From contig CAYHLX010000001.1 of NCBI GenBank assembly GCA_964357605.1, positions 5,159 through 69,158 on the forward strand: a stretch of DNA of 64,000 bases, given 5' to 3'. Positions 5,652-20,420 of this stretch are shown here, one piece after another; positions within the stretch are counted from its first letter, which is position 1, and the number at the start of each line of letters is the position of its first letter. The notes under the pieces were generated by a model. It saw only the letters and a list, made by a program, of their open reading frames with translations, searched no databases and had not been told where the DNA came from. The position numbers and the translations under genes were made by a program. The stretch is from an uncultured Candidatus Saccharibacteria bacterium (GTDB taxonomy: Bacteria > Patescibacteriota > Minisyncoccia > Phycocordibacterales > PALSA-1337).

Positions 5652-8060
5652 ATGAACTTAGCGACGAAACACTTAACCATCCCTATCCTGGCTATTGTTA
5701 TCCTCCTCACCATCCTTTTCAACCTCGGAGGAACAGAAAAAGATATCTCTACATATTTACCACCTGCTCCCACTCAAACTGCAGCTGTTTCAGATTTCAA
5801 TTCTTCCCTCGTTGCTCACTATACTTTTGATGGTAATACCAACGACTCCGCTGGTTCTAACAATGGGACAGCAGTAGGTGGGCCGACGTATACCACAGGC
5901 AAAATTGGACAAGGACTCAGCTTCGATGGGACAGATGACAAAGTTACGACCTCAGATCTCGGTACTCTAGGATCGTCAGTCTCATTGTCATATTGGTTCA
6001 AAACCACAGATGGGCCAAATTCAGCCATGGTGGGCATCGGCACAAAAAAATATTGCAGTATCGATTGGAGTCCTGCAGGATCATTTGCCTGTACTGTCCA
6101 TGGCGGAGGTGGTGCACTTTCGAGTGGCCAGGCATTCAATGATGGAACATGGCATCATGGAGTGTTTGTTATGACAGAGAATAGTCAACTTATCTATATT
6201 GATGGCGTATTGAAAAATTCATCAAACGGAGAATTACCAGCAGATACTTCGTCCGCTGTTCTTATGGGAGATCGAGCTTTTGGCGGTACACCCTATTCCG
6301 GCGCTCTTGATGATGTACGAATATATAACAAAGCTCTTTCCGCTAATGAAATTCAACAATTGTACACTTTTAATAATGAAAGTACGCCAATAGTAACTCC
6401 GACACCGGATACAAATTCAAATCCAAATCCGACACCACCTCCGACTACAAATCCCGTGCCAGCACCAACCGAACCAATTTCTGTAGACAGCAAACATTAT
6501 TATGTGCGTCCTGATGGCGGAAATTATGGCAACGAAGATGGATCAAGTTGGGCTAATGCCTTTGACGGATTCAATGATGTTGTGTGGGGAAATAATACTG
6601 GCCAGGTCGGTGCAGGAGATGTCCTGTATGTGAGTGCCGGTAACTATTATCAACCACTTATTGTCGGTATATCAGGTGTTTCTGGAAATAGAGTGACAGT
6701 TCGCGCCGCGCAAGATACATATGTTGGAATTGCAAATCTTAATTCCACATCAGCAATAAGTTATGGAGGCAATGCTTATGTAACTATTGATGGAGGTTAC
6801 AATGGAAATAACCATTTTGTAACCACTACATATATTAATGGACAGGGTACTATAGACCCAGGTTTACATTATTTTACCATTAACAAAAATCTTGCCGATT
6901 TTAGATATTCAAGCAAAGGAGAATTTTCGTATAACATTGTTAATATTGTCGATTCAACTGCAGAAACGGCATTTTACTTCACTGCGTCAAAGAATCGTGA
7001 TGCCCCCTCGTTTGGATTATCAAAGTTCCATCATAATAAAATTATAGTACCAGGGAAGATAAATGACGGTAATGGTCCTGACGGTATTCATGCCGGAACA
7101 GGATTTGACATATACAACAACATTTTTCAATCAGTATTATGGACTCCCGGTTCGCTCATAGGTCATAACCACCAGGATCTCATACAGGCTTATGGAGATG
7201 AGCATTTGAGAATTTACAACAATGAATTTATTGACTCTGGTGATTCTCAAATTGATTTCTCTAAAGCAGGAAATGTAACGCAATCTAATTTACTTGTTTA
7301 TAATAACGTCTTTCGAAGGACTATTGCTGAAATGGGTACGGTCATGTTGAGGATATATACAGAAGGCGGGGGAAGCATCTCTTCGTTTAATAATATTATG
7401 ATTGACAATAACACGTTTATAGATGGATCTAGAACAGGTCCTTCCTATGGCGGAGGTATTCGCGTTATTAATACAGACACAGCTACCGGGGCTTCTAATG
7501 CGACAATACGAAATAATATTTTCTACAATTCTGGTCGCGCGTGGCCAGTCGTGTTGATGGAGGGTATATCACCAAACTGGACTGTGTCAAATAATCTAAT
7601 CAACGCTGGATCATCTGGTAATGCAACTATACAGTGGACAGGTATAAATCCTGTAGGCACGCAAACTACCGCACCTAATTTTGTAGGTTATGTTCCATAT
7701 GCGTTAAGTATGGATTTACATTTGAGAAACATGGATAGTGCCGCTATCAATAAAGGAGTCAATCTTTCCTCCCACTTTTCCACAGACAAAGACGGCAACC
7801 ATCGCAATGTTGGCGGTGCCTGGGACATCGGCGCCTACGAATACCAAGGAAGCGGGACAACTCAACCACCAGTCACCCCACCAGTAACACCCACCACCTA
7901 CAAACCAGGCGACTTCAACAGAGATGGAGCAGTCAATGCCCTAGACTTCTCCCTATTGTCAGGTGCCTGGAATACCAATACCTCTACATATGATCTAAAC
8001 AGTGATGGTATTGTGAACTCTCTCGACTACGTGATCATGGTGCAGAATTGGACGGGGTAG
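5652..8060 (+). CDS. Secreted LamG domain - PT-rich linker - right-handed parallel beta-helix (pectate-lyase-like) - C-terminal type I dockerin protein
   Basis: Start re-set to ATG 5652 (MNLATKHLTIPILAIVILL..., a signal/TM segment). The track ORF start at 5496 overlaps the previous gene. LamG motif 'LDDVRIYNKALSANEIQQLY' is followed by a TPTPDTNSNPNPTPPPTTNPVPAPT linker. Repeated NN(I/V)F/YNN.F motifs at beta-helix spacing. The C-terminus 'DFNRDGAVNALDFSLL...DLNSDGIVNSLDYVIMVQNW' is two DxNxDGxVNxxD calcium-loop repeats, i.e. a dockerin. Confidence 0.75.
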   Translation: MNLATKHLTIPILAIVILLTILFNLGGTEKDISTYLPPAPTQTAAVSDFNSSLVAHYTFDGNTNDSAGSNNGTAVGGPTYTTGKIGQGLSFDGTDDKVTTSDLGTLGSSVSLSYWFKTTDGPNSAMVGIGTKKYCSIDWSPAGSFACTVHGGGGALSSGQAFNDGTWHHGVFVMTENSQLIYIDGVLKNSSNGELPADTSSAVLMGDRAFGGTPYSGALDDVRIYNKALSANEIQQLYTFNNESTPIVTPTPDTNSNPNPTPPPTTNPVPAPTEPISVDSKHYYVRPDGGNYGNEDGSSWANAFDGFNDVVWGNNTGQVGAGDVLYVSAGNYYQPLIVGISGVSGNRVTVRAAQDTYVGIANLNSTSAISYGGNAYVTIDGGYNGNNHFVTTTYINGQGTIDPGLHYFTINKNLADFRYSSKGEFSYNIVNIVDSTAETAFYFTASKNRDAPSFGLSKFHHNKIIVPGKINDGNGPDGIHAGTGFDIYNNIFQSVLWTPGSLIGHNHQDLIQAYGDEHLRIYNNEFIDSGDSQIDFSKAGNVTQSNLLVYNNVFRRTIAEMGTVMLRIYTEGGGSISSFNNIMIDNNTFIDGSRTGPSYGGGIRVINTDTATGASNATIRNNIFYNSGRAWPVVLMEGISPNWTVSNNLINAGSSGNATIQWTGINPVGTQTTAPNFVGYVPYALSMDLHLRNMDSAAINKGVNLSSHFSTDKDGNHRNVGGAWDIGAYEYQGSGTTQPPVTPPVTPTTYKPGDFNRDGAVNALDFSLLSGAWNTNTSTYDLNSDGIVNSLDYVIMVQNWTG

Positions 8061-8133: not shown

Positions 8134-8757
8134 ATGAATTATATAGATTTTCAACAAAAGTTTAAGGAGTACCCGCTTATTATGGTTTCCGATATCAAGA
8201 CAGCATTTGCTGATTATGATTCTCGGCGATTGTATGAGTGGCAGAAGGCCGGCTATATCCGCAAGGTGGCTAGGAATTTTTGGTTATTTACAGATCAGCA
8301 GGTGAGTGAAAGTCAGACGTGTTTTATTGCCAACAAGCTTCGTGAGCCATCCTATCTAAGTTTGGAATATGCTCTTGGTACATATGGACTCATTCCAGAA
8401 CAGGTTTTCGTCAAGACATGTATAACAACGAGGGGTCGTGCGACATATGAGACACCTGTCGGGAACTTTAGCTATCGTTCCATGAAAGAGGAACTTTTTT
8501 TCGGCTATCTGCTCCATGGAGAGGGGGCATATGCATATAGGATGGCTTCACCAGAAAAGGCATTGCTGGATTTTCTTTACATGCGTTCAGATATACAGGA
8601 TGAAGGCCACATCGCCGAGCTACGCATTGCCACGGATGTGTATCGTGACAAGATAGATGATGCTCGACTGGATTCATATCTCAAAATATTCAACTCGCCG
8701 ACACTAGAGAATAAGGTGCGTCTTGTTCGTGAATATATACTAGACAACCATGATTAA
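8134..8757 (+). CDS. Putative AbiEi-like antitoxin (type IV toxin-antitoxin system partner of AbiEii)
   Basis: 207-aa protein immediately upstream of, and overlapping by 8 nt, an AbiEii-family nucleotidyltransferase gene. The call rests mainly on this conserved two-gene arrangement plus size. No strong motif was recognised by eye. Confidence 0.5.
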   Translation: MNYIDFQQKFKEYPLIMVSDIKTAFADYDSRRLYEWQKAGYIRKVARNFWLFTDQQVSESQTCFIANKLREPSYLSLEYALGTYGLIPEQVFVKTCITTRGRATYETPVGNFSYRSMKEELFFGYLLHGEGAYAYRMASPEKALLDFLYMRSDIQDEGHIAELRIATDVYRDKIDDARLDSYLKIFNSPTLENKVRLVREYILDNHD

Positions 8758-9524
8758 TCTTACCGAATTACAAAAGCTCTATCCGTACCCGGCAGGGTTT
8801 GACCGTAGTGCACTACGAGAATATTTTCAATACAAGATTATGGATATTCTTTTTAGACAAGGAATTGGAAACAAGCTTTGTTTTCTAGGGGGTACAGCAA
8901 TAAAGTTCTGCTATGGTGGCAGACGGTATTCAGAGGATCTTGATTTTGACAATCGTGGTATTAGTCCTGAAGAATTTGAGGCTTTGGTGGAAACCGTTGG
9001 ACAGGAACTTGGTCGTGAAGGATATCGCGTCGATGTTAGGAATTCTTTCAAGAATGCATTTCGTTCACGAGTGGGCATCGAGGGTGTATATCATGATAAT
9101 GGTTTGAGCCCACTTCCCAATGAAAAGCTAATGATCCAGATCGATATGGCACCGCAGGATTTTGCTTTTGAGCCACAGACATATATGCTACAAAAGTACG
9201 AGGTACTCCGTACGATTGCCGTAGTTCCAGTCCAGACTATTTTATCCCAAAAGGTTGCCGCAGTTATTTATTGGACGCAAGAGAGCTAAGGGTCGTGATT
9301 TCTACGACATCGTCTATCTCCGTGGCTTTACGGAATTTGATTTCTCCTATCTCAAGGATAAGCTTGGTATTGTCGATGTAGTCGAACTCAAAAAAAAACT
9401 TCTCGAAGTCACTGCTGGATTTGATTTTGATGCATTGGCTACCGATGTTATGCCATTTCTCGTTAATCGCGAGGAGGTTGAATATGTGCGCCAGTTTAGA
9501 ACATATATTGAACAGAAATTGTGA
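8750..9524 (+). pseudogene. AbiEii/AbiGii-family nucleotidyltransferase toxin, interrupted by a +1 frameshift around 9255-9290
   Basis: The N-terminal ORF 8750..9289 contains 'LCFLGGTAIKFCYGGRRYSEDLDFD', the AbiEii nucleotidyltransferase signature GGTAL...R.S.DLDF. The conserved C-terminal part 'GRKRAKGRDFYDIVYL...' continues in the +1 frame (ORF 9255..9524, which starts at TTG). The two ORFs overlap by 35 nt. Confidence 0.6.
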
Positions 9525-9599: not shown

Positions 9600-11990
9600 A
9601 TGAACCCCAAGAAATACGTGCTACTCTCTGCACTTGTAGCTGTTATCATTCTCACCATCCTCTTCAACCTCGGAGATATTACATCCAAGGAGATTGTCCA
9701 GTATATCCCACCTATTACCTCCCAATCCCAAACAGCCGCAGTGTCTGACTTCAACTCTAGTTTAGTAGCTCACTATACATTTGATGACACTACCAACGAT
9801 TCTGCAGGATCTAACCACGGTACAGCTGTAGGTGGACCGACGTATACTACTGGCAAGATCGGGAGGGGCTTACAATTTAACAATGATGGTGCGTTTAATA
9901 GCCCGATGCATGTTGTCAGTTCATCTGTTTCCCTCAGCTCTGACTGGTCCGTGTCCTTTTGGGTTTTAAGGATTTCAAATGTCGGGGCGGCTCAATATGC
10001 CGTTTCAATGACTGATGCTACAGGTATACTTGTAAAAGATAGTAGTGGCATTAATAATTGGGGATTTTTTGATGGCACAACAGTTTTAAATGGGTCGGCA
10101 CAGATACCAATACAGAGCTGGACTTTCATAACTGTTACGAAATCGGGAACTACTTATACCCTTTATATAAATGGAGCTTCTGATACTTCTGGTACACTTA
10201 ATGATGTAGATATAAGTAGAATAATGATAGGAGTTAGGTCATCTAATTTTCTTGGGATGCACGGAACACTTGATGACGTTCGCATATATGATCGTGCATT
10301 GAGTGCTGGAGAAGTAAGTCAACTCCATACACTTGGTAGTGGAGGAACTGTCATAGCACCGGATCCAACCCCCACTTCTCAACCAATACCAGTTCCAGAT
10401 CCAGTAGTAGTCACTCCACCTCCAGTTCAACAACAAGTACCACCACCTGTAGTATCTGGTTCGCAAACATACTATATAGACTATGTCTCAGGCAACAATG
10501 CGAACAACGGTACCTCAAAGACTACTCCTTGGAAGGTTCATCCATTCATGAAAGGTTTTACTGGTAGCTATTCACACAAGGCAGGAGACAGATTCATTTT
10601 TAAAGGTGGTGTGACGTGGCCAAACTCATCATTTCAGATGAATATTACCGCCGGTGGAAGCAGTGACAGTGTGCGTGACTATTATGGTGTTGACAAGACT
10701 TGGTATGCCGGTTCCTCGTGGGCTAGACCGGTGTTTGATTTTGAGAATACCCTTATATCCGGTGGCGGTTTTAATTCGGTCGGCCTCCTGATTAATAGTG
10801 CAAACTATATCACAATTGATGAAATAGATTTTGCTAGATACAGAACACCGGCGGTAGGAGCGGGCGACTATGGTTCAGGTACATTAGTCCTCATCGGTTC
10901 ATCCAGTAATATCACCATACAAAATTGTATTGTCCGCGACTGGTCAAATGGTGGTGGTGCCGATGGTGGTTCTGGCGGAGGTATCTGGTCATTTTCAAGT
11001 GGTAGTGGAAACAAAGTCTTGCATTGCATCTTTCATGGCTTTAATACCAATATAAAAGGAGGACGTGCATTATCATTTTATGGTGAGATCGGTTTCAATG
11101 AAGCATATGATTTGAGCACTTTCCTTATGGGTGGAGGCGATGTTCATGATAATTATGTACATAATATGAAAGGTGCCACAGACCCGAATAATCATGAAAA
11201 CGCCTTTTATATAATGGGTGTCAGCAAATTGTACAATAATCTTCTACATGACATTGATCCGGGTAGCTCTTCGTATTATCTAGAACCAGGTTTCTCCAGT
11301 CCATCGGGTACAACAATGGTCTATAATAATGTCGCTTTTAATGTTGGAAATGATGCCCCGATTTCAATCGAGACTGATGGACAGTACGCAGCTTCACAGA
11401 ATATAAAAATTTTCAATAACACTGTTGAACATGGAGTAGGTAATTGTATCCGAACTGTATTGCGCGGAAGCCAACATATTGGCTCGCTTGAAGTCGCTAA
11501 TAATCATTGTATAACTACTGGACCAGCCAAGGATTTTCCTACAGCGACAGTTACAACTCTTACGGACCGGGGTACCGACATAGTTCAGACTCATGCTCAG
11601 GCCGCGTCATCTGGTGCGACTCCTACAAATCGTTACCGGCCGACGTCTGCCAGTTCTCCTGCGATCAATGTTGGGCTATCGCTTCCTAGTTACTTCACGT
11701 CTGACAAATTAGGAGTCGTCCGTCCCCAAAGTACGGTATGGGATGTAGGCGCCTACGAATACCAAGGAAGCGGAACAAATCCTCCTGTAGTCACTCCCCC
11801 CATCACCCCACCAGTAACACCCCCAACCTACAAACCCGGCGACTTCAACAGAGACGGAGCAGTCAATGCCCTAGACTTCTCACTCTTGTCAGGTGCCTGG
11901 AATACCAATACCTCTACATATGATCTAAACAGTGATGGTATTGTGAATACTCTAGACTACGTCATCATGGTGCAGAATTGGACGGGGTAG
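9600..11990 (+). CDS. Secreted LamG - PT/PV linker - beta-helix - dockerin protein (paralog of 5652..8060)
   Basis: N-terminal 'ILTILFNLGDITSKEI...QSQTAAVSDFNSSLVAHYTFDDTTNDSAGSNHGTAVGGPTYTTGKIG' is near-identical to its paralogs. Also 'LDDVRIYDRALSAGEVSQLH', a PVPDPVVVTPPPVQQQVPPPV linker, NN-rich beta-helix repeats, and a C-terminal dockerin 'YKPGDFNRDGAVNALDFSLLSGAWNTNTSTYDLNSDGIVNTLDYVIMVQNWTG'. Confidence 0.75.
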   Translation: MNPKKYVLLSALVAVIILTILFNLGDITSKEIVQYIPPITSQSQTAAVSDFNSSLVAHYTFDDTTNDSAGSNHGTAVGGPTYTTGKIGRGLQFNNDGAFNSPMHVVSSSVSLSSDWSVSFWVLRISNVGAAQYAVSMTDATGILVKDSSGINNWGFFDGTTVLNGSAQIPIQSWTFITVTKSGTTYTLYINGASDTSGTLNDVDISRIMIGVRSSNFLGMHGTLDDVRIYDRALSAGEVSQLHTLGSGGTVIAPDPTPTSQPIPVPDPVVVTPPPVQQQVPPPVVSGSQTYYIDYVSGNNANNGTSKTTPWKVHPFMKGFTGSYSHKAGDRFIFKGGVTWPNSSFQMNITAGGSSDSVRDYYGVDKTWYAGSSWARPVFDFENTLISGGGFNSVGLLINSANYITIDEIDFARYRTPAVGAGDYGSGTLVLIGSSSNITIQNCIVRDWSNGGGADGGSGGGIWSFSSGSGNKVLHCIFHGFNTNIKGGRALSFYGEIGFNEAYDLSTFLMGGGDVHDNYVHNMKGATDPNNHENAFYIMGVSKLYNNLLHDIDPGSSSYYLEPGFSSPSGTTMVYNNVAFNVGNDAPISIETDGQYAASQNIKIFNNTVEHGVGNCIRTVLRGSQHIGSLEVANNHCITTGPAKDFPTATVTTLTDRGTDIVQTHAQAASSGATPTNRYRPTSASSPAINVGLSLPSYFTSDKLGVVRPQSTVWDVGAYEYQGSGTNPPVVTPPITPPVTPPTYKPGDFNRDGAVNALDFSLLSGAWNTNTSTYDLNSDGIVNTLDYVIMVQNWTG

Positions 11991-12006
11991 ATGGGGTAAA
12001 CAGCCA

Positions 12007-12048
12007 AAATCGTGAAAATAGCTTAATTTTATCGGTTTTTCACGATTT
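12007..12048. repeat. Perfect 12-bp inverted repeat (aaatcgtgaaaa ... ttttcacgattt) with about an 18-nt spacer, downstream of the 9600..11990 stop
   Basis: Read directly: 12007-12018 aaatcgtgaaaa and 12037-12048 ttttcacgattt are reverse complements. It could be a terminator/attenuator stem or a protein-binding palindrome. Confidence 0.6.
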
Positions 12049-12120: not shown

Positions 12121-15100
12121 ATGGCCCACCCAAAGACACTTCACAGCATCATCGCACTCATAGCCTGTGCAGGTATCATATTAGCAATTATATTTAGCAC
12201 TAACTCATCACCTGACTCTGTCTCTCTCACCCTCTCACCAGAGAGTAGATCAACTCCAGTCGGAGAAACATTCACTATAGACATAGTCCTCAATACCGCC
12301 AAACAAACAGTATACGGAGTAGACATCAATCGACTACGCTTTGATCCTCGTATTCTAGAGGTAGTTGATATAGATACAGCTACACCAGGAACACAAATAA
12401 CAGCTGGCTCCCTCATGGACGCTACAGTCTTCAACTCTGCTGACAATACTCTCGGTACTATACAGTTCTCTCAAGTCATGACTCCAGGTACCAGTGGAAC
12501 TAACTCATTTACTGGCTCTGGTACTCTCGCTACCGTCACCTTCAAGGTAGTAGCTGAAGGTAAATCAGACATATTCATTGACTTTACCCCTGGCTCAAGT
12601 ACAGCTTCAAATGTCGCTGGACAATCAGGCAATCTCCTATCAGTAGTCAATGGTGGATCATACAAGGGTACACGATCACTTCTCTCAACTATCACTTCTC
12701 AATCTCAAATGGCTGCTGTGGCTGACTTTAACTCTAGTCTCGTTGCTCACTATACTTTTGATGGTAATACCAATGACGGAGCTGGTTCTAACAATGGGAC
12801 TGCAAGTGGTGGACCGACGTATACTACAGGCAAAATTGGACAAGGGCTCAGTCTTGACGGTAGCGATGACAAGATAACTTTTACCGCATTCAATGTACCT
12901 TCAAGCTTTACCATATCAACATGGGTCAACCCTGGGTCAAGTCAATCAAGAGATTGGTCGCAGATTCTAGGGGAAGTTAATACGGGCAGTGGGTTACATT
13001 ATAAAAGAGGGGCAAATAAAATTTCCTATTATTTTTCTGGAGGTGATCATTTGACTAACGGATCTCTAAATGCGGGTCAGTGGCACCATGTTGCTTTGGT
13101 TCAAAACTCTGGTAATTATACGTTTTATATAAATGGTTCTGCTGATGCGAGTGGTACAGGAGGTGTGAGTTTCAATCCTTACATCATAGGTCACAATCAC
13201 TGGGGCGAAACATTTGCCGGTTCACTGGATGACATGCGCATCTACAATCGCGCGCTTGACTCGAGTGAAGTGAGTCAACTCTACGCTCTCGGCAGTGGAG
13301 GTGGTACACCCGCGCCAACACCGGATCCTACGCCTACTCCGATACCAGATCCGACACCAACGCCCAGTCCGACAACCTGTTCTTCCTTTACTTACTCCAG
13401 TTGGGGTACGTGCACAAATAGTACCCAAAGTCGTACCGTGACTTCTTCTTCACCTACTGGTTGTACTGGCGGATCACCGATAACTACTCAGTCTTGTGTG
13501 GTTACAACACCTACTCCGACACCACCTGTAGTAACACCAACACCTTCGCCAATTCCTGGAAACACGACATGTCAGGCAATCAATGGTCATAAGTGCTGGT
13601 ATGTAAATTCTTCAGCGACAGGGTTAAATAATGGTACATCTTGGCAAGATGCATGGAGAAGCTTTGCAGATGTTCAGTTAAAAAATCCCTACCGTGCGTG
13701 CGGCGCGCCTACAGGATGCCTCAATTCTGGGGATACACTCTATATTTCGGGCGGCCCTAGCGGATCCAGCAGAACTTATTCAGGTATTTCTTATACATCC
13801 CCTCAGGGAGTAGGATTTGTTTTTGATGTTGGCCATGAGGAAACTGCAAGGTATGCTACAACTCGTGCAGATGGGATTAAAATAAGGCCAGGACAAGATG
13901 CCGGGCACAATGGCAAAGTGATAATTGATGCCGGAGGGCAGGTAGGAATTGGAGCAAATAATTCTCAATATGTCACAATTGATGGGGAATATAATGGTCA
14001 GAGAAATATCGTTATCAGAAATTCATCTGCCGGAATTACCGTCGTTTCAAGTAATGATGCAATAATTCGCTACGTTGAGATTGATAACGTCTCTTCTATA
14101 GCCATATCGGCAGGACAAACACAAAGAGGAGGTGAAATAGCATACAATTATATCCATCAAGTTCGTGGCGAAGCGGCGATCAACTGCAATGGCACAAACA
14201 ATGAACAAGGAAGTCCCAATCATGGCTATGATAAGATGTTGATTCATCACAATGAAATTCAGCTCAATCGCTGGGATCCCAGTCTGGAACCTTCCAGGAA
14301 TGCTGCAGCTGATGGAATTGGTCCTGATGGAATACAGGGTTGCTATGGCCTGAGCTTCTATAACAATTACATTTATCACAAGCCGGGAATGCTCGCGCCA
14401 CGTTCACAGCATCCGGACATGATCCAATCCGGTGGGGCATACTTGAAAGTATATAATAACGTTTTTGAGAATATGACAGATTCTGCAGTGGATTTTGACT
14501 CACCTTTTGTTGGAAAGGTTAGAATATTCAACAACATATTTAAGTCAACACTCTATACAGGTATACCAAGCGGCATTCGCATGTATTCTTCTGGCACATG
14601 GGGTCCTTTTACAAGCCTAGATGATGTTTATATTCTCAACAATCTTTTTGTTGATACTGGTTATTCTGAACGGGGAGGAAGTCCGATAGGTTTTGGCGCA
14701 GGTTCTGTAACGGCATCAAATATTCACATACTCAACAATATATTCTACAACTCAGGGCATAGTAATTATGGGTCACTCATTAATTCGGCAGCTTCTTCTG
14801 GATTTACTCATTCTGATTTTGATATAGGATACAATCTTGTTGATGCTGGATTGCATGGCACGACTAATATCATTCTTGATGGCACTGCCTTTACACAGCA
14901 TCATCCTCTGAGCGGAAAACCTGCTTGGGTTTCGTATAGTGAAGCTTCACCATCTAATAATTTTAAATTAACGGGATCTGATACATTTGCAATCGATAAG
15001 GGAACAAACTTAACAAACTTGTGCAGTGTGATTGGTCTATCTGAGCTTTGCGCTGACGCAGAAAATAAACCGAGACCTTCTGTCGGAGCATGGGAAATAG

Positions 15101-16401
15101 GAACATACGAATACAACGGCTCTGGCGGAACGCCGACTCCACCTCCAGTAACGCCACCGCCACCGCCACCGCCTTCACCTTTATCCACTTACTACGTTTC
15201 TCCTTCAGGCAATGATTCAAACGCGGGAACATCAGCATCACCATTCCGTACTATCCAAAAAGCCGCTAACATAGTTATTCCTGGAGATACAGTCGTCGTT
15301 AGAAATGGAACATATACTGATACGGATGGAAATAATATCATAGCAACCATCGGTAGGGGCGGTGCGGCTGGAGCACCAGTAACTTTCCGTTCGGAAAATC
15401 CTTTCGGTGCCATATTGAGTGGAAACAATACTGCCGGATTCGGATTTATTTTTGGAAATAATATCAACTATGTCAACATAGAAGGATTTGAAATTAAAGA
15501 TATTGTTGAGGCAGGGATCAACATCAACGAATCAAATTCATATATTACTATTAAGGATAATCGTATTCACCACATTGGTCACATTCAGACACACACACTA
15601 TACGGCATGAGTTGTATTGATGTGGGAAGTAGGGCTCATCATATTACTGTTGCAGGCAATACTATTTATTCCTGCGGAAGGCTGAACCCAAATAATACAA
15701 ACCTTGAAATTCTGGACTCAACCTGTATTACGCCGGTTGGCTATGTCTTTCCTGGAAATGGCATCACATATTCAAAGGAAAACACTTGCTACAACCATGA
15801 TCATGGCATATATGTAAGAGGTGATGATATCAATATTACTAACAATACATTCTACGATATGAAATCTGGTTGGGGAGTGCATGTATATGATGATGCGGCT
15901 CTAAAAGAGCGTATTACTATCACTGGCAACACATTTGCAGATGCCAATCCACAAAGAAACGGCCAGATCATTATCGGTCCACAGACAAGCAATCTGCGTA
16001 TCGAAAGTAATATTTTCTACAATCCATCAGTCTCTGCCATCAGGCTCGGAGACACTTGTGCTGCAGCCGGTCTCACCAGTATCACTATACAGAACAACTC
16101 AACCAACATCGGAGATCTCATCTCAGGAGCCGACGTATCATGCGGGTATACTATCTCCGGCAATCTTCTCAATCAAAATTTCCAATTTGCAAATGAAGCA
16201 GGAAGAGATTATCGTCTCATATCCGGCCAACCTATCGTCAACAAACCAGGCGACTTCAACAGAGACGGAGCAGTCAATGCCCTAGACTTCTCACTCTTGT
16301 CAGGTGCCTGGAATACCAATACCTCTACATATGATCTAAACAGTGATGGTATTGTGAATACTCTAGACTATGTGATCATGGTGCAAAATTGGACGGGGTA
16401 G
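12121..16401 (+). CDS. Giant surface protein: N-terminal cohesin-like domain, LamG domain, PT linkers, Cys-containing module, two right-handed beta-helix regions, C-terminal dockerin
   Basis: Residues about 30-180 ('VSLTLSPESRSTPVGETFTIDIVLNTAKQTVYGVDINRLRFDP...GTIQFSQV...GSGTLATVTFKVVAEGKSDIFIDF') have cohesin-like beta-sandwich features. They are homologous to the N-terminal domains of 21969..23327, 23367..25040 and 25101..25808. LamG 'LDDMRIYNRALDSSEVSQLY'. 'SPFRTIQKAANIVIPGDTVVVRNGTY' is a typical beta-helix cap. The dockerin tail is identical to that of 9600..11990. Confidence 0.7.
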   Translation: MAHPKTLHSIIALIACAGIILAIIFSTNSSPDSVSLTLSPESRSTPVGETFTIDIVLNTAKQTVYGVDINRLRFDPRILEVVDIDTATPGTQITAGSLMDATVFNSADNTLGTIQFSQVMTPGTSGTNSFTGSGTLATVTFKVVAEGKSDIFIDFTPGSSTASNVAGQSGNLLSVVNGGSYKGTRSLLSTITSQSQMAAVADFNSSLVAHYTFDGNTNDGAGSNNGTASGGPTYTTGKIGQGLSLDGSDDKITFTAFNVPSSFTISTWVNPGSSQSRDWSQILGEVNTGSGLHYKRGANKISYYFSGGDHLTNGSLNAGQWHHVALVQNSGNYTFYINGSADASGTGGVSFNPYIIGHNHWGETFAGSLDDMRIYNRALDSSEVSQLYALGSGGGTPAPTPDPTPTPIPDPTPTPSPTTCSSFTYSSWGTCTNSTQSRTVTSSSPTGCTGGSPITTQSCVVTTPTPTPPVVTPTPSPIPGNTTCQAINGHKCWYVNSSATGLNNGTSWQDAWRSFADVQLKNPYRACGAPTGCLNSGDTLYISGGPSGSSRTYSGISYTSPQGVGFVFDVGHEETARYATTRADGIKIRPGQDAGHNGKVIIDAGGQVGIGANNSQYVTIDGEYNGQRNIVIRNSSAGITVVSSNDAIIRYVEIDNVSSIAISAGQTQRGGEIAYNYIHQVRGEAAINCNGTNNEQGSPNHGYDKMLIHHNEIQLNRWDPSLEPSRNAAADGIGPDGIQGCYGLSFYNNYIYHKPGMLAPRSQHPDMIQSGGAYLKVYNNVFENMTDSAVDFDSPFVGKVRIFNNIFKSTLYTGIPSGIRMYSSGTWGPFTSLDDVYILNNLFVDTGYSERGGSPIGFGAGSVTASNIHILNNIFYNSGHSNYGSLINSAASSGFTHSDFDIGYNLVDAGLHGTTNIILDGTAFTQHHPLSGKPAWVSYSEASPSNNFKLTGSDTFAIDKGTNLTNLCSVIGLSELCADAENKPRPSVGAWEIGTYEYNGSGGTPTPPPVTPPPPPPPSPLSTYYVSPSGNDSNAGTSASPFRTIQKAANIVIPGDTVVVRNGTYTDTDGNNIIATIGRGGAAGAPVTFRSENPFGAILSGNNTAGFGFIFGNNINYVNIEGFEIKDIVEAGININESNSYITIKDNRIHHIGHIQTHTLYGMSCIDVGSRAHHITVAGNTIYSCGRLNPNNTNLEILDSTCITPVGYVFPGNGITYSKENTCYNHDHGIYVRGDDINITNNTFYDMKSGWGVHVYDDAALKERITITGNTFADANPQRNGQIIIGPQTSNLRIESNIFYNPSVSAIRLGDTCAAAGLTSITIQNNSTNIGDLISGADVSCGYTISGNLLNQNFQFANEAGRDYRLISGQPIVNKPGDFNRDGAVNALDFSLLSGAWNTNTSTYDLNSDGIVNTLDYVIMVQNWTG
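16377..16401 (+). repeat. Direct repeat copy 1 (the dockerin-gene 3' end catggtgcaaaattggacggggtag) flanking the ATPase gene
   Basis: 24/25 identical to 17743..17767. The two copies bracket the AAA ATPase gene 16532..17725. Confidence 0.7.
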
Positions 16402-16531
16402 GGGTGAAAGTAACTCAAGATGGTAAAAATAGTATTGTAAATTATGTTCAAGAATAAGGGTATTTTAGGTCTTTTTCCTAGATATAAAATTGCACTTTAC
16501 ATCTAGTCAAGATTAATGTAAACTACCATTT

Positions 16532-17725
16532 ATGAATAAAGTATTTTATCCGAGAAAAATATATCCTGAATTAAAGGAACATTTGGAGAGTGATGATGTC
16601 ATGATTATTACTGGCATGCGTCGTACCGGAAAGACTACATTGGTAGAACATATTCTTTCGGAAATAAATTCAAGTAACAAGATATTTTTAGATTTGGAGA
16701 AAATAAGTAATCAGGAAATATTTGGTGATAAAAATTATGATAATGTCATTATTAGTTTAGAACAACAGGGTTTATCTCAGAAGGAAAGAATGTATGTGGC
16801 CTTGGATGAAATCCAGACTATGCCGAACATACCGAGTGTAATCAAATATCTTCATGATCACTATAATATAAAGTTCATTCTTACCGGATCTAGTTCTTAC
16901 TATCTAAAAAATTTATTTACTGAGTCTCTCTCTGGAAGAAAGAAACTTTTTGAACTACATCCTCTGGATTTTGGAGAATTTTTGACTTTCAAAAATGTCT
17001 CATATAAACGACTTGATAGTATAGATTCAGTAGAAACTTTTAATATGCATGAGTATGAAAGACTGAAAGCTTACTATGAAGAATATATTGAGTATGGTGG
17101 TTTTCCAAAAGTTGTACTTGCTCCGTCTGTCAAAGATAAAAAAGATATTCTTGATGATATAATCAGCTCGTACATCAATGTTGATATAAAAAGTATCGCT
17201 GATTTCAAAGATGCTTCAGCAGTTCTCAATATAGCAAAAATGCTGGCGGCCAGGATAGGGGGTAAGCTCGATTATTCCAAATTATCTAGACTGACAGGGC
17301 TCACTCGACCAACGATCGTCAATTATATGTATCTATTTGAACGGACGTATCTCATTTCTCTCATTCCTGTTCATACCAAAAATCCTGATAGAGAAATAGT
17401 TAAGGCTCAAAAAATATATTTTTCGGATAGCGGGCTTGCTGGAATACTTGCTGGTATAGACAGTGGTTCAAAATTTGAAAATACTATTTTCAATCAGCTT
17501 AGACATAAGAGAGAATTAAAGTATTATTCCCTAAAGACTGGCAATGAAATTGATTTTATTGTTGACAAAAAACTAGCATTAGAAGTGAAGGAAACCCCTA
17601 CAGAATTTGACATAAAAAATCTTGCATATTTAGCGGACAAAGCAGGGGTTGTATCTTATAAATTAGTAGGTAGACATCACACTCCCAATTTTTCTAATTA
17701 TATATGGGGTGGAAGTATTTTATGA
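16532..17725 (+). CDS. AAA-family ATPase (AAA_14 + DUF4143-type architecture)
   Basis: Walker A 'ITGMRRTGKTTL'. Overall length and layout are typical of the widespread AAA+DUF4143 'ATP-binding protein' family. It is flanked by direct repeats of the dockerin 3' end. Confidence 0.8.
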   Translation: MNKVFYPRKIYPELKEHLESDDVMIITGMRRTGKTTLVEHILSEINSSNKIFLDLEKISNQEIFGDKNYDNVIISLEQQGLSQKERMYVALDEIQTMPNIPSVIKYLHDHYNIKFILTGSSSYYLKNLFTESLSGRKKLFELHPLDFGEFLTFKNVSYKRLDSIDSVETFNMHEYERLKAYYEEYIEYGGFPKVVLAPSVKDKKDILDDIISSYINVDIKSIADFKDASAVLNIAKMLAARIGGKLDYSKLSRLTGLTRPTIVNYMYLFERTYLISLIPVHTKNPDREIVKAQKIYFSDSGLAGILAGIDSGSKFENTIFNQLRHKRELKYYSLKTGNEIDFIVDKKLALEVKETPTEFDIKNLAYLADKAGVVSYKLVGRHHTPNFSNYIWGGSIL

Positions 17726-17742
17726 CACCAAGACTAGCGTCT

Positions 17743-17837: not shown

Positions 17838-20420
17838 ATGAATCTCACCAAAAAACATCTCATAGTAGCGGGGCTTACTATTATTATCATCCTTACCATC
17901 CTCTTTAATCTTGGAGATATTACATCCAAGGAGATTGCACAGTATATCCCACCAAGTAGCTCACAATCCCAGACTGCCGCCGTTTCTGACTTCATCGTCC
18001 ACAATACATTTGATACAGGGACTGTGACCGGTGCTATCGGCCAGGCCACAACATTTGATGGGATTGATGATTATGTGACACTGAGTTCGAGTGGTGTGCC
18101 AGTGGGCAAACAGCCGGTGACTGTGTCGGCTTGGGTCAAGCTTGCTGGTTCTCCTTCTGCTGATAGCAGGATTGTTTTTCGCGGAGAGAGGTATTCGTCA
18201 TCAGATTTTATATTTTTTGATCTAGCTCTCGAAGGGGCAGGACACAATGTGCCGACATTTACCATGATGGGTACCGGAGGAGGAGGTTCACACTACAAGG
18301 CAACTTCAGGAACAGGACTTTCAGCCGGACAGTGGTACCACCTGGTTGGCGTTTCCGATGGAGGAGGCGCAGTGACTGTATATGTAAACAATACTCCTAC
18401 TACCGGAAGCCATATTGATTTCGATGGTCACGATGGAACACCATACGCACCGTCCGTAGGCGCACGGTTGCAAGGCTCCGCGGATTCTTTCTTTGCCGGT
18501 TCGATCGACGACGTTCGTATTTACAACCGCGCACTTGACTCGAGTGAAGTGAGCCAACTCTACGCGCTCGGCAGTGGAGGTGGTACGCCCGCGCCAACGC
18601 CGGATCCTACACCAACCCCGACACCGGATCCAACACCGACACCTTCTGCAGTCAACGGTCAATGTGGTGTAACTGAGAATATTTGTATTCAAGGTACTCT
18701 CAATAATACTGCTGACTCTACTACCAATTATCTTTGGCAATGTACCGGTGCAAATGGTGGCGCAACGGGTTCATGTTCTATTGCAAAACCAGTAAACACC
18801 ATAGTGACCCCACCATCCACTCCAGATCCAGTTACCTTTACAGCACCACCTGTAGTATCCGGTTCGCAAACATACTATATAGACTATGTCTCAGGTAACA
18901 ATGCCAACAACGGCACTTCAAAAAACACCCCATGGAAGGTTCATCCATACATGAAAGGTTTTACCGGAAGCTATTCACACAAGGCTGGAGACAGATTTAT
19001 TTTCAAGGGAGGTGTAACGTGGCCACACTCTGCATTTCAGATGAATATTGCCGCTGGCGGAAGCAGTGACAGTGCGCGTGACTATTATGGTGCTGACAAA
19101 ACTTGGTATGCCGGTTCATCTTGGACCAGACCAGTTTTTGATTTTGAAAACAAAGTCGTAGCACCGGATGCATGGGGTGGAGCAGAGTCAGCAGGGTTGC
19201 TTCTCAGGGATGTTCACTACATCACTCTCGACAATCTGGAGCTGATCCGTTTCCGTCAAAGATTGTTTGAAAAGAATTCCGGCAAGGCTGACCCCGGATT
19301 TGCGGTGGATAATATCACTATACAAGGATCCGCATCCAATATTACACTGCAAAACAGCATTGTGCGTGATTGGACTATACCTACACCCATACCGGCGGGC
19401 TATATAGATGGCGGGGCATCAGGAGGGGTTATCGTTAATGCTTGGTCTGGCGGAGGCACGGGTATAAAAATCCTTAACAATGAATTTCATCAGCAGAATA
19501 CAGGAATCAGATCTGGGGTAGCACTCTATTTGGGTGGAGAGATTGCCTATAACACTATCCACCATGTGTCAGATGCTATCGTCGGTGGTGGTAACGTTCA
19601 TGACAATCTGATCTACAACGTCGAGGATGCCACCTGTCCGGAATTACACGAAGATGTGATCTATATCACATCACCTTCAACGGTTTACAACAACGTTGTC
19701 TATGAAGCTACTGCCGCCGCTCCCGTCTATTACCTTGAACCGAGTCGTTCCGCATCCACTGGAACAACATTGGTGTATAACAATATTTCCTATAATACCG
19801 GGTATGCACCTCTCAGTATAGACATTAGTCAGCCTGAAGGTGTCAATCACGTGATAAAAGTTTACAACAACAGTTTTCATTCCGAAAGTTCTTCGGTGGT
19901 ACGCGTGGTGGATCGTGTCGGTTTACCATTGGGTGTATTGGATATGAAGAATAATCACTTTATTTTCAATGGACAATTCCTCAATATTCCTGCTGGCACA
20001 GTCCTAGACTTTAAGAATACAAATAATATTTTCCACACAGAGTCCGAAGCTGCCCAGTTCGGGGCAACAAGGGCCAACCTATTCAAATTTACTTCGTCTA
20101 ATGCACCAATGATAAACGCCGGTGTAAGTTTGTCGACATTTTTTGCGACTGACAGGCTCGGTGTTGCTCGTCCACAAGGCGGAGCTTGGGATATTGGCGC
20201 CTACGAATATGGTGGAAGCGGAGGATCTGTATGGTCACCACCGCCACCAGCACCAGTTTACAAGCAAGGTGATTTCAACAGGGATGGGCTAGTCAATTCT
20301 CTAGATCTTTCTCTGCTCACATCTGTTTGGAATCAAAATAGTGCCTCATACGATCTGAATTCTGATGGTATCGTAAATAGCTTGGATTATGTGGTTATGA
20401 TTCAGAACTGGACATCGTAA
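17838..20420 (+). CDS. Secreted LamG-like - PT linker - Cys module - beta-helix - dockerin protein (divergent paralog)
   Basis: Same N-terminal leader ('IIILTILFNLGDITSKEIAQYIPPSSSQSQTAAVSDF'). 'IDDVRIYNRALDSSEVSQLYALGSGGGTPAPTPDPTPTPTPDPTPTPS' is near-identical to 12121..16401. The beta-helix core is homologous to 9600..11990 ('SGSQTYYIDYVSGNNANNGTSK.TPWKVHP(F/Y)MKGFTGSYSHKAGDRFIFKGGVTWP'). The dockerin is a variant: 'DFNRDGLVNSLDLSLL...DLNSDGIVNSLDYVVMIQNWTS'. Confidence 0.7.
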   Translation: MNLTKKHLIVAGLTIIIILTILFNLGDITSKEIAQYIPPSSSQSQTAAVSDFIVHNTFDTGTVTGAIGQATTFDGIDDYVTLSSSGVPVGKQPVTVSAWVKLAGSPSADSRIVFRGERYSSSDFIFFDLALEGAGHNVPTFTMMGTGGGGSHYKATSGTGLSAGQWYHLVGVSDGGGAVTVYVNNTPTTGSHIDFDGHDGTPYAPSVGARLQGSADSFFAGSIDDVRIYNRALDSSEVSQLYALGSGGGTPAPTPDPTPTPTPDPTPTPSAVNGQCGVTENICIQGTLNNTADSTTNYLWQCTGANGGATGSCSIAKPVNTIVTPPSTPDPVTFTAPPVVSGSQTYYIDYVSGNNANNGTSKNTPWKVHPYMKGFTGSYSHKAGDRFIFKGGVTWPHSAFQMNIAAGGSSDSARDYYGADKTWYAGSSWTRPVFDFENKVVAPDAWGGAESAGLLLRDVHYITLDNLELIRFRQRLFEKNSGKADPGFAVDNITIQGSASNITLQNSIVRDWTIPTPIPAGYIDGGASGGVIVNAWSGGGTGIKILNNEFHQQNTGIRSGVALYLGGEIAYNTIHHVSDAIVGGGNVHDNLIYNVEDATCPELHEDVIYITSPSTVYNNVVYEATAAAPVYYLEPSRSASTGTTLVYNNISYNTGYAPLSIDISQPEGVNHVIKVYNNSFHSESSSVVRVVDRVGLPLGVLDMKNNHFIFNGQFLNIPAGTVLDFKNTNNIFHTESEAAQFGATRANLFKFTSSNAPMINAGVSLSTFFATDRLGVARPQGGAWDIGAYEYGGSGGSVWSPPPPAPVYKQGDFNRDGLVNSLDLSLLTSVWNQNSASYDLNSDGIVNSLDYVVMIQNWTS

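What the first reader, a model, noticed from the sequence alone, without database searches (positions are those of the whole stretch)
5652..20420. Family of four LamG - beta-helix - dockerin paralogs whose dockerin-coding 3' ends are nearly identical at the DNA level (concerted evolution / cassette exchange)
The four genes (5652..8060, 9600..11990, 12121..16401, 17838..20420) share an N-terminal leader + LamG module and a C-terminal dockerin. Their central beta-helix regions are divergent in length and sequence. The last about 160 nt, which encode the dockerin, are about 95% identical between 8060, 11990 and 16401, including synonymous positions. The 3' UTRs are also similar (ggggtaggggtaactaactc / ggggtaggggtgaaagtaactc). 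Gene 12121..16401 additionally begins with a cohesin module, which would make a protein able to bind copies of itself or its paralogs. This pattern suggests ongoing gene conversion or recombination that shuffles catalytic beta-helix cargo onto a conserved docking module. It is a built-in diversification mechanism distinct from the DGR.
Basis: seen in the sequence. Interest (0 to 1): 0.7.

Follow-up and report, generated by a model that had tools for sequence, protein, structure and literature searches.

The report
Dockerin gene ends homogenised by recombination
In a groundwater Saccharibacteria genome, three very different surface-protein genes carry an almost identical 161-base stretch encoding their docking module, because recombination between the copies keeps overwriting it; this is a familiar process seen here in a new organism and module.

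Summary
Genes A (5652-8060), B (9600-11990) and C (12121-16401) end in a 161-nt dockerin block that is 95-97.5% identical. Its dS is 0.16-0.27, whereas synonymous sites are saturated in the gene bodies. The breakpoint lies exactly at the dockerin start (permutation P<=0.001). Gene D's dockerin is not homogenised (about 34% different, synonymous sites saturated).

A sister genome (GCA_964602725.1) has the same three-copy homogenised set. Two derived synonymous substitutions are shared by all three window copies and by none of the sister copies. Dockerin dS between orthologues is normal. This indicates gene conversion after the lineages split, not nucleotide-level selection.

Older patches with other pairings (dS 0.6-0.75), and relatives with swapped leaders, cohesin or cargo, show a recombining modular family. 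There is no sign of a dedicated diversification machine: every gene is complete with its own promoter-like box.

One result was not anticipated. Defence and toxin-antitoxin cassettes (AbiE, AAA_14/DUF4143) sit directly after these dockerins. Each is followed by a 22-37-nt copy of the dockerin end. The AAA_14 unit occupies different dockerin ends in the two genomes, and each genome has a clean empty site where the other is filled.

Verdict: this is a new member of a known kind, concerted evolution of an anchor module. The cassette pattern deserves follow-up.

The parts
5652..8060 (+). Gene A (802 aa): leader/TM, LamG (aa 92-235), beta-helix centre, choice-of-anchor-Q motif (aa 694-732), Pro/Thr linker, dockerin (aa 752-796)
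   Evidence: Pfam; NCBIfam. The identical protein is called on ENA contig L001.
7900..8060 (+). Homogenised 161-nt dockerin block, copy A
   Evidence: 95.0% identical to the B and C copies; dS 0.23-0.27
8134..9520 (+). AbiE cassette: AbiEi 8134-8757 and AbiEii 8750-9520. AbiEii is truncated in the window to 8750-9289 by a 4-nt insertion at 9264-9267.
   Evidence: Pfam; PADLOC (AbiEi E=5e-61, AbiEii E=4e-50); comparison with L001
9520..9543 (+). Degenerate dockerin-3'-end remnant directly after the AbiEii stop. It is followed by a conserved promoter spacer that runs up to the start of B.
   Evidence: GTGATCATGGTCCAAAATCGAAC versus ATCATGGTGCAGAATTGGAC
9600..11990 (+). Gene B (796 aa): leader, LamG, centre homologous to that of D, dockerin
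   Evidence: Pfam; hhalign
11830..11990 (+). Homogenised 161-nt dockerin block, copy B
   Evidence: 97.5% identical to C and 95.0% to A
11991..12051 (+). Hairpin/operator-like remnant (13-bp stem AAATCGTGAAAAA/TTTTTCACGATTT). It is homologous to the region upstream of the Fic gene in the sister genome.
12052..12073 (+). 22-nt exact duplicate of the dockerin end (identical to 11962-11983), old type ending GGAC-TAA. The promoter spacer of C follows it.
12121..16401 (+). Gene C (1426 aa): signal, cohesin (aa 38-161), LamG (aa 246-385), beta-helix module 1, DUF1565/Beta_helix module 2 (aa 1029-1354), dockerin
   Evidence: Pfam. The orthologue in L002/L003 is 93.7% identical in nt.
16241..16401 (+). 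Homogenised 161-nt dockerin block, copy C. Its 5' boundary at 16241 is sharp.
   Evidence: The max-chi2 breakpoint lies 160 nt from the 3' end.
16402..17730 (+). AAA_14/DUF4143 cassette (PADLOC PDC-S01 candidate defence gene); ORF 16532-17725. It is absent from this site in the sister genome.
   Evidence: Pfam; PADLOC; junctions; independent assembly L015
17731..17767 (+). 37-nt direct-repeat copy of the dockerin 3' end including the stop codon. It forms the right boundary of the AAA_14 unit.
17838..20420 (+). Gene D (860 aa): leader, LamG, B-like centre, and a dockerin of a different, non-homogenised type (20260-20420)
   Evidence: Pfam. The D-type dockerin is conserved as an orthologue in L004, L006 and L007.
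10441..10747 (+). Older conversion patch shared with D (18844-19150): 88.6% identity, dS 0.60
13213..13364 (+). Older conversion patch shared with D (18492-18643): 85.5% identity, dS 0.70
5773..5941 (+). Older conversion patch shared with C (12704-12872): 82% identity, dS 0.75
21969..23327 (+). Candidate wall anchor for dockerin proteins: signal peptide, weak cohesin match, two PG_binding_1 domains
   Evidence: Pfam (Cohesin 20.2 bits, below the cut-off of 24.1; PG_binding_1 E=6e-18); N-terminus
23367..25808 (+). fn3-dockerin gene (23367-25040, a third dockerin type) and a small secreted cohesin gene (25101-25808). This pair is conserved across Saccharibacteria loci.
   Evidence: Pfam; tblastn

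Best explanation
A, B, C and D are members of a modular Saccharibacteria surface-protein family. The module order is leader, optional cohesin, LamG lectin-like module, beta-helix cargo, Pro/Thr linker, and a C-terminal type-I-like dockerin. The dockerin presumably fixes the protein to a cohesin-bearing partner on the cell wall.

In A, B and C the 161-nt dockerin-coding block is repeatedly overwritten by homologous recombination between the paralogues, that is, non-reciprocal gene conversion. This could occur within the chromosome or through DNA taken up by natural transformation. The docking module therefore evolves in concert while the cargo diverges freely.

Selection for binding to one shared cohesin probably favours the homogenised state. 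D carries an older dockerin type, conserved as an orthologue, and does not take part.

The same repeated sequence also acts as a crossover point. The locus gains, loses and relocates defence and TA cassettes, and whole cargo genes, at dockerin ends.

Shown: the tract, its boundaries, its relative age, post-split conversion, mosaicism, and the cassette indels. Inferred: the RecA/transformation route, the cohesin partner, and the selective reason.
For: 1. Tract and statistics. Dockerin dS among A, B and C is 0.155-0.267, against saturated pS of 0.72-0.76 in the gene bodies. Max-chi2 breakpoints lie 160 nt from the 3' end for A-C and B-C, and 228 nt for A-B (P<=0.001). Identical runs are 62-122 nt long. 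Codon identity is 0.90-0.93 in the dockerin and about 0.4 elsewhere.

2. Internal controls.
- The A-B N-terminal region is 74-87% identical in amino acids, yet its pS is 0.84, so purifying selection alone does not preserve synonymous sites.
- D's dockerin is 63-70% identical in amino acids to the others, yet its synonymous sites are saturated.

3. No nucleotide-level constraint. Dockerin dS between orthologues in the window and the sister genome is 0.19 for C and 0.20 for D, equal to the whole-gene values of 0.195 and 0.223. The RNA fold z-score is -0.79.

4. Conversion after the split. Block columns 113 and 116 correspond to window positions 8012/8015, 11942/11945 and 16353/16356. They carry T and G in all three window copies. 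None of the three sister-genome copies has T at column 113 or G at column 116, and neither do L029 or the D-type dockerins.

5. Recurrent process. Older patches with other partners have intermediate dS of 0.60-0.75. In L005, two unrelated cargo genes share a genome-specific dockerin at 86.7% over 166 nt.

6. Dockerin end as a junction. The AAA_14 unit with its 37-nt repeat is filled at C|D and empty at B in the window, and the reverse holds in the sister genome. Further remnants lie at 9520-9543 and 12052-12073, and at L003 2473-2523.

7. Plausible machinery. Saccharibacteria are naturally transformable and integrate DNA by homologous recombination. A dockerin protein is essential in Southlakia epibionticum (PMC10633639).
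Against: - Only two linked sites document conversion after the split.
- Paralogue dockerin dS (0.16-0.27) is about equal to orthologue dS. Most homogenisation may therefore date to around the split rather than being continuous.
- No population data show conversion in progress. The only extra contigs found come from the same strain.
- The cohesin partner and any selective benefit are untested.
- Variation within the block clusters at columns 110-134 rather than falling off smoothly from one end. This fits several short tracts but is not explained in detail.
Confidence: 0.8

Rival explanations
1. Cassette-driven homogenisation. Defence and TA cassettes (AAA_14/DUF4143, AbiE, Fic) move between dockerin ends and bring a replacement copy of the gene's 3' end. 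Repair or co-conversion during each arrival overwrites the neighbouring dockerin. Cassette traffic would then be the cause of the near-identity, not a consequence of it.
For: - All homogenised dockerins are cassette sites or empty sites, and D is neither.
- The AAA_14 unit has clean filled and empty sites at two different dockerins.
- Its right repeat carries element-specific variants (GCGTCTC) in both genomes.
- The same anatomy occurs with other host genes: L017/L018 with a 40-nt repeat at 97.5%, and L016 with an 85-nt repeat.
- DUF4143 is a PD-(D/E)XK nuclease family (PMC3424549).
- The current dockerin ends (GGAC-GGGGTAG) differ from the older remnants (GGAC-TAA) by an insertion-like footprint.
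Against: - The dockerin next to the cassette in the sister genome (LX) is not the closest relative of the dockerin next to the cassette in the window. LX-wC differ at 9 of 134 positions, LX-LC at 5 and LX-wB at 6. No co-conversion tract is therefore visible.
- The repeat is only 22-48 nt long, whereas the homogenised block is 161 nt.
- Five of about nine AAA_14 contexts show no repeat.
- Cassettes of unrelated families show the same remnants, which fits generic homologous recombination.
Confidence: 0.15
2. A one-off module transfer. A single recent event, or a few, grafted one dockerin onto three pre-existing genes, with no continuing conversion.
For: - Paralogue dockerin dS is similar to the orthologue dS between the two genomes.
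- Both genomes already have the three-copy set.
- The 5' boundary in C is sharp.
Against: - Two derived synonymous sites are shared by all three window copies only.
- Several older patches of different ages and partners exist.
- In A-B, similarity continues upstream of the block at lower identity. This fits repeated overlapping tracts.
Confidence: 0.1
3. A dedicated, programmed diversification or antigenic-variation system that swaps beta-helix cargo between conserved ends.
For: - The 5' leader/LamG start and the 3' dockerin are conserved around variable centres.
- P0003 and P0002 show different cargo or module sets between relatives.
Against: - There are no silent or promoterless cassettes. 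Each gene is intact, with an ATG and a TATAAT-like box about 7 nt upstream.
- No recombinase, invertase or transposase domain was found in the scanned ORFs of the window.
- The 5' homology is old (dS 0.7 to saturated).
- The two strain-level assemblies are identical.
Confidence: 0.05
4. Purifying selection, a nucleotide-level functional element, or an assembly artefact accounts for the identity.
For: The dockerin protein is highly conserved (dN<=0.008). The repeats are long enough to confuse assemblers.
Against: - Orthologue dS in the dockerin is normal (0.19-0.20).
- The fold z-score is -0.79.
- The conserved N-terminal region and D's dockerin show saturated synonymous sites.
- The copies differ at 4-8 positions.
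- Independent assemblies and a second genome show the same structure.
Confidence: 0.03

Closest known systems
Concerted evolution of the 3' segments of the babA/babB adhesin paralogues, and other Hop outer-membrane protein genes, in Helicobacter pylori (own knowledge: Pride & Blaser 2002; general review by Santoyo & Romero 2005)
   Same: Paralogous surface-protein genes have divergent ligand-binding middles. The 3' part, which encodes the anchoring module, is homogenised within a genome by RecA-type gene conversion. The evidence is of the same kind: paralogues within a strain resemble each other more than orthologues do.
   Different: The anchor here is a dockerin (protein-protein docking), not a beta-barrel. 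The genes lie in one tandem array interleaved with defence cassettes. The organism is an ultra-small epibiotic CPR bacterium. Only two diagnostic sites are available so far.
Campylobacter fetus sap (S-layer protein) homologues (own knowledge)
   Same: Several full-length paralogues share a DNA-identical block encoding the cell-surface attachment domain, with variable remainders. Recombination occurs within the conserved block.
   Different: In C. fetus the conserved block is at the 5' end. There is one promoter, and DNA inversion places different cassettes behind it, which is programmed variation. Here each gene has its own start and promoter-like box, and no inversion system is seen.
Cellulosomal and non-cellulosomal cohesin-dockerin systems (own knowledge: Bayer and Lamed work; Peer et al. 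2009 on non-cellulosomal modules)
   Same: Type-I-like dockerins with two Ca-binding repeats sit on diverse cargo, and cohesin proteins are encoded nearby. One cohesin protein has peptidoglycan-binding domains. Many cargo proteins of one organism share a dockerin type.
   Different: No multi-cohesin scaffoldin and no cellulases or GH domains were detected. The cargo is LamG plus beta-helix (possibly polysaccharide-lyase-like or adhesin). Near-identity of dockerins at synonymous sites and its recombinational origin were not found in the searched literature.
Integrative elements that regenerate the 3' end of their target gene (tRNA/tmRNA-type att duplications), and integron or Rhs/CDI 'orphan' cassette arrays (own knowledge)
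   Same: Accessory and defence cassettes lie directly after a gene. Each is followed by a direct-repeat copy of that gene's 3' end. Arrays of TA cassettes separated by a repeated element occur in L006.
   Different: No integrase, attC-like hairpin or IntI was found. The repeat is protein-coding dockerin sequence of variable length, from 22 to more than 150 nt. Unrelated cassette families show the same pattern, so plain homologous recombination may be enough.

Membership tests
Type I dockerin (Pfam PF00404) | A profile match above the gathering score, and two F-hand Ca-binding repeats (DxNxDGxxNxxD) | tested here: met
   E=6.5e-10 to 3.4e-9 and 37-39.5 bits, against a cut-off of 22.9, in A, B, C and D. 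DFNRDGAVNALD and DLNSDGIVNSLD are visible in the translation.
Type I dockerin (Pfam PF00404) | Ca-dependent binding to a cognate cohesin | not testable with these tools
   No multimer prediction or biochemistry was available.
Cohesin (Pfam PF00963) | A profile match above the gathering score | tested here: met
   C aa 38-161: 43.5 bits. Gene 25101-25808: 41.6 bits. Gene 21969-23327: only 20.2 bits, below the cut-off of 24.1.
Cellulosome | A scaffoldin with multiple cohesins and dockerin-bearing glycoside hydrolases | tested here: not met
   Each protein has a single cohesin. No GH or cellulase domain occurs in any dockerin protein of the window.
Concerted evolution by gene conversion | A discrete tract with far lower synonymous divergence than its flanks and statistically supported breakpoints | tested here: met
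   dS is 0.16-0.27 in the tract and saturated in the flanks. Max-chi2 and run-length permutations give P<=0.001.
Concerted evolution by gene conversion | Paralogues within a genome share derived changes that orthologues in a sister genome lack | tested here: met
   Columns 113 and 116 are T and G in all three window copies and in none of the three L003 copies, L029 or the D-type dockerins. There are only two sites and they are linked.
Concerted evolution by gene conversion | No alternative nucleotide-level constraint on the tract | tested here: met
   Orthologue dS in the dockerin is 0.19-0.20, the same as the gene averages. The RNA fold z-score is -0.79.
Programmed cassette-based antigenic variation (pilE/pilS, vlsE, sap type) | Silent, promoterless or truncated donor cassettes plus one expression site | tested here: not met
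   All four genes are complete ORFs with an ATG and a TATAAT-like box just upstream.
Programmed cassette-based antigenic variation (pilE/pilS, vlsE, sap type) | A dedicated recombinase or invertase, or a specific recombination signal | tested here: not met
   About 40 ORFs of the window were scanned and none has a recombinase, invertase or transposase domain.
Diversity-generating retroelement target | A VR in the gene paired with a TR next to an RT, with adenine-specific mismatches | tested here: not met
   The window's DGR has its VR at 51621-51724 and its TR at 52016-52119, next to the RT at 52556-53548. It targets gene 50975-51736, not the dockerin genes.
Integron cassette array | IntI integrase, attI, and attC hairpin sites bounding the cassettes | tested here: inconclusive
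   No integrase was found in the window. The repeats bounding the cassettes are dockerin-coding fragments of variable length. Their ssDNA folding was not examined, and the rest of the genome is unavailable.

The most novel reading that the evidence does not exclude
The dockerin-coding 3' end doubles as a landing site for a cassette system that contains no recombinase gene. Single-gene or two-gene defence and TA units insert immediately after the stop codon. The clearest case is the AAA_14/DUF4143 ATPase-nuclease unit, which has a conserved non-coding left end. These units carry or create a 22-85-nt copy of the host gene's 3' end and hop between dockerin genes. Repair associated with this traffic would be what homogenises the dockerins. 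The same unit shows the same anatomy behind unrelated genes in other Patescibacteria. It could therefore be an undescribed kind of mobile element, with arrays like the one in L006 as an integron-like product.
Probability: 0.2. Interest if true: 0.75.

Novelty: new member of a known kind. Interest (0 to 1): 0.45.

Why it matters
Saccharibacteria live attached to host bacteria, and their surface proteins are the interface of that lifestyle. A dockerin protein is essential in the one species with genetics (PMC10633639).

This locus shows how such a reduced genome keeps a common docking handle while letting the functional cargo diverge and be exchanged. It uses only homologous recombination on a 161-nt repeat to do so.

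The locus also gives a concrete, testable prediction of which dockerins share a cohesin: A, B and C versus D versus the fn3 protein. It further flags dockerin ends as hot spots where defence genes come and go.

If the cassette pattern proves to be an active mechanism, it would add a new type of mobile element that is abundant in Patescibacteria.

Tried and rejected
- A protein search with the linker and dockerin alone returned nothing for technical reasons: no shared words. The range of cargo carrying this exact dockerin could therefore not be surveyed.
- An exact-DNA probe of JGI and other metagenome contigs found only one contig, from the same strain and site. No strain series was obtained.
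- A co-conversion test failed. The dockerin flanking the AAA_14 unit in the sister genome is not the closest relative of the one flanking it in the window. Cassette-driven homogenisation is therefore not demonstrated.
- AAA_14 homologues are not generally next to dockerin genes. A specific AAA_14-dockerin partnership was dropped.
- The consensus promoter/terminator scan was uninformative: 51 sites against 40 expected.
- PDB sequence searches of the A and B centres gave nothing meaningful.
- The AF2 model of A is low-confidence (pLDDT 53.3). Fold hits to PL6 lyases count only as weak support.
- An RNA-structure explanation was rejected (z=-0.79).
- An assembly artefact was rejected.
- Literature searches for dockerin with 'gene conversion' or 'concerted evolution' found nothing relevant.
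Full report
**What is there**

The window is chromosomal DNA of an uncultured Candidatus Saccharibacteria (Patescibacteria/CPR) from Hainich groundwater.
- Gene A is encoded identically on an ENA contig from well H41.
- The closest genome in GTDB is a Saccharibacteria MAG.
- Housekeeping genes (gyrB, dnaE, pheS, thrS, tgt, ribosomal proteins) surround the locus.

Genes A (5652-8060), B (9600-11990), C (12121-16401) and D (17838-20420) all encode Laminin_G_3 plus Dockerin_1. C adds an N-terminal cohesin and a second DUF1565/Beta_helix module.

The beta-helix assignment rests on the following:
- The centre of A passes the Pfam Beta_helix threshold when scanned alone.
- The centres of B and D have no Pfam match but are homologous to the A/C centre by profile-profile comparison (95.5%, E=1.6e-8).
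- Conserved NN motifs recur along the alignment.
- A low-confidence AF2 model (pLDDT 53) shows triplets of short strands in the centre, with weak PL6-lyase-like hits.
- NCBIfam finds a 'choice-of-anchor Q' motif just before the linker. This fits a cargo that can carry alternative anchors.

Downstream lie three related genes:
- a secreted cohesin-like protein with two peptidoglycan-binding domains (21969-23327);
- an fn3-dockerin protein (23367-25040);
- a small secreted cohesin (25101-25808).

The last 161 nt of A, B and C differ at only 4-8 positions: A-C 95.0%, B-C 97.5%, A-B 95.0%. The gene bodies are 20-45% identical in protein.

Among codons that specify the same amino acid, 90-93% are identical in the dockerin and about 40% elsewhere. 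Nei-Gojobori dS is 0.155-0.267 in the dockerin. Synonymous sites in the remaining 655-716 aligned codons are saturated, with pS 0.72-0.76.

Maximum chi-square places the breakpoint 160 nt from the 3' end for A-C and B-C, and 228 nt for A-B. Identical runs of 62-122 nt never occur in 1000 permutations. In C the 5' boundary is abrupt, because a different module precedes the dockerin.

Similarity past the stop codon lasts only about 13-16 nt in A and C.

D does not belong to the homogenised set. It differs at 53-55 of 161 nt and its synonymous sites are saturated. D's dockerin type is the one conserved as an orthologue in more distant Saccharibacteria and Paceibacterota loci.

**Why this is recombination and not selection or artefact**

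Two internal controls show that protein conservation alone does not preserve synonymous sites here:
- The N-terminal region of A and B is 74-87% identical in protein, yet pS is 0.84.
- D's dockerin is 63-70% identical to the others, yet its synonymous sites are saturated.

A sister genome (GCA_964602725.1, loci L002/L003) carries orthologues of C (93.7% nt) and D (91.8% nt) in synteny. Between these orthologues the dockerin dS is 0.19 and 0.20, the same as the whole-gene values of 0.195 and 0.223. The block is therefore under no special nucleotide-level constraint. It also has no unusual RNA fold (z=-0.79).

The sister genome has its own set of three ABC-type dockerins. At two synonymous positions (block columns 113 and 116) all three window copies carry T and G. 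None of the three sister copies has T at column 113 or G at column 116, and neither do the more distant relative L029 or the D-type dockerins. A change that arose once has therefore spread to all three paralogues after the lineages separated.

Independent assemblies from replicate samples reproduce parts of the locus at 99.9%, and the copies are not identical. Assembly collapse is therefore excluded.

**A recombining, modular family**

Other patches of raised identity join different partners:

| Pair | First copy | Second copy | Identity | dS |
|---|---|---|---|---|
| B-D | 10441-10747 | 18844-19150 | 88.6% | 0.60 |
| C-D | 13213-13364 | 18492-18643 | 85.5% | 0.70 |
| A-C | 5773-5941 | 12704-12872 | 82% | 0.75 |
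| B-D | 9643-9753 | 17884-17994 | 86% | 0.72 |

 These dS values lie between the dockerin values and the saturated background. They indicate older exchanges.

Relatives show modules in other combinations:
- P0003 in the sister genome has an A-like 5' end (81% over 280 nt) and the ABC dockerin (94%) around an unrelated Pel9A/NosD-type beta-helix.
- P0002 (L029) is C-like in its LamG, second module and dockerin, but has a B-like leader and no cohesin.
- In L005, two adjacent genes with unrelated cargo (Ig-like repeats versus polysaccharide lyase/CBM6) share a genome-specific dockerin at 86.7% over 166 nt.

Orthologue comparisons are themselves patchy. C codons 1001-1203 have dS 0.5-1.0, and D codons 101-300 have dS 0.46-0.93. 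This suggests allelic recombination between strains.

Saccharibacteria are naturally transformable and integrate DNA by homologous recombination (PMC10633639). The required machinery is therefore plausible.

Nothing indicates a dedicated diversification device.
- All four genes are complete.
- Each is preceded by a TATAAT-like box about 7 nt before its ATG, with no evident Shine-Dalgarno sequence.
- No recombinase, invertase or transposase domain was found in the roughly 40 ORFs scanned.
- The window's DGR (VR 51621-51724, TR 52016-52119, RT 52556-53548) targets another gene.

What is directly seen is conservation of the anchor by homogenisation. Cargo exchange is inferred only from comparisons between genomes.

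**An unexpected layer: cassettes at dockerin ends**

The spaces between the paralogues hold defence and TA genes:
- AbiEi/AbiEii after A;
- a remnant of a Fic-type promoter/operator after B;
- an AAA_14/DUF4143 gene after C. This gene matches the PADLOC candidate PDC-S01 (E=1.6e-61), and DUF4143 is a PD-(D/E)XK family.

Each is followed by a short copy of the dockerin 3' end: 9520-9543, 12052-12073 (a 22-nt exact copy) and 17731-17767 (37 nt including the stop).

Junction comparison is clean.
- In the sister genome, C' is followed directly by the D' upstream region. In the window, the 1.33-kb AAA_14 unit plus the 37-nt repeat lies between them.
- Conversely, the sister genome has the same unit (96.7% identical) after another dockerin gene. 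The sequence that follows it there is the one that follows B directly in the window.

A more distant Saccharibacterium (L006) has five or six TA and AAA_14 cassettes in a row, each followed by a dockerin fragment. One fragment keeps extra upstream gene sequence, so the boundaries are not fixed.

AAA_14/DUF4143 homologues (58-84% identical) are extremely common in Patescibacteria and are usually not next to dockerins. In L017/L018 and L016 the unit is again followed by a 40-nt (97.5%) or 85-nt copy of the 3' end of whatever gene precedes it. It also has a conserved non-coding left end. Five other contexts show no such repeat.

I could not decide between two readings. Either these units use the repeated dockerin end passively, through homologous recombination, or they are active elements whose traffic helps homogenise the dockerins. 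One test of the second reading was negative: the cassette-flanking dockerins in the two genomes are not each other's closest relatives.

**Comparison with known systems and verdict**

The core finding is concerted evolution, by gene conversion, of the anchor-encoding end of paralogous surface-protein genes. This is well known from H. pylori babA/babB and, in mirror image, from C. fetus sap genes (own knowledge).

The new elements are the module (a non-cellulosomal dockerin), the organism (a CPR epibiont), and the link with defence-cassette indels. Searches of the held literature found no report of dockerin gene conversion or concerted evolution.

I rate it a new member of a known kind, of moderate interest. 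It has a less likely but more novel reading, a recombinase-less cassette system that uses gene 3' ends, which deserves a dedicated survey.

Noticed in passing
window 16402-17767; L003 135-1501; L017 4890-6272; L018 1980-3362; L016 3196-4770: The AAA_14/DUF4143 (PADLOC PDC-S01) unit has the same anatomy behind unrelated host genes. The order is: host gene stop, conserved non-coding left end (GGGTATTTTA...ACTTTACAT), ORF, then a 37-85-nt copy of the host gene's 3' end with its own stop. The unit contains no recombinase. The repeat was found in 4 of about 9 contexts examined.
   Followed up: partly
L006 4271-9815: A distant Saccharibacteria locus has an integron-like row of TA and defence cassettes: HEPN/MNT twice, Gp49-HigB/HTH, AAA_14/DUF4143, a HigB-like gene, and MNT/HepT. 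Each of the first five is followed by a dockerin-coding fragment, one of which is a pseudogene. The row lies between two full-length dockerin genes.
   Followed up: partly
window 9264-9267: A 4-nt insertion (TTAT) relative to the replicate-sample contig L001 frameshifts the AbiEii toxin gene, giving 179 aa instead of 256 aa. This is either a toxin-inactivating variant in the population or an assembly error.
   Followed up: partly
window 8054-8080, 12070-12085, 16395-16420; L029 1476-1510: The current ABC dockerins end GGAC-GGGGTAG (..NWTG*). Older remnants end GGAC-TAACTAATG (..NWT*). The flank of A reads GGAC+GGGGTAGGGG+TAACTAACTC, as if a 10-nt footprint had replaced the old stop codon.
   Followed up: no
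window 5636-5654, 9584-9602, 12105-12123, 17823-17840, 8118-8136: Every paralogue, and AbiEi, has a TATAAT-like box ending about 7 nt before its ATG, with no obvious Shine-Dalgarno sequence. This suggests leaderless transcripts with one promoter per gene.
   Followed up: no
window 11991-12051; L003 1502-1598: The hairpin after B (13-bp stem, AAAATCGTGAAAAT motifs) is homologous to the repeated operator-like motifs and TTGACA/TATACT promoter upstream of the Fic gene in the sister genome. The window therefore seems to retain only the stump of a lost Fic cassette.
   Followed up: partly
window 15121-15729 (C codons 1001-1203) and 18138-18737 (D codons 101-300), compared with L003: Orthologue dS is very uneven: 0.5-1.0 in these stretches against 0.01-0.2 elsewhere. 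This suggests allelic replacement by recombination between strains, including in D's LamG domain.
   Followed up: no
L029 1541-5083 (P0002): A C-like gene in a Logan assembly lacks the N-terminal cohesin and carries a B-like leader. It is preceded by an AbiEi/AbiEii pair and a dockerin-end remnant. The cohesin module is therefore itself gained or lost by recombination.
   Followed up: partly
window 50975-53548: DGR: VR 51621-51724 at the end of gene 50975-51736, TR 52016-52119, RT 52556-53548. TR-to-VR mismatches are mostly at TR adenines. It is unrelated to the dockerin genes.
   Followed up: partly
window 16-5632, 21005-21907, 31378-32283: There are further LamG genes without dockerins: three upstream genes with one to three LamG modules that share the repeated DDVRIYNRALS..E..QLY motif at the DNA level, and two pilin-like (N_methyl) LamG proteins. 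The region is a large LamG surface-protein island.
   Followed up: no
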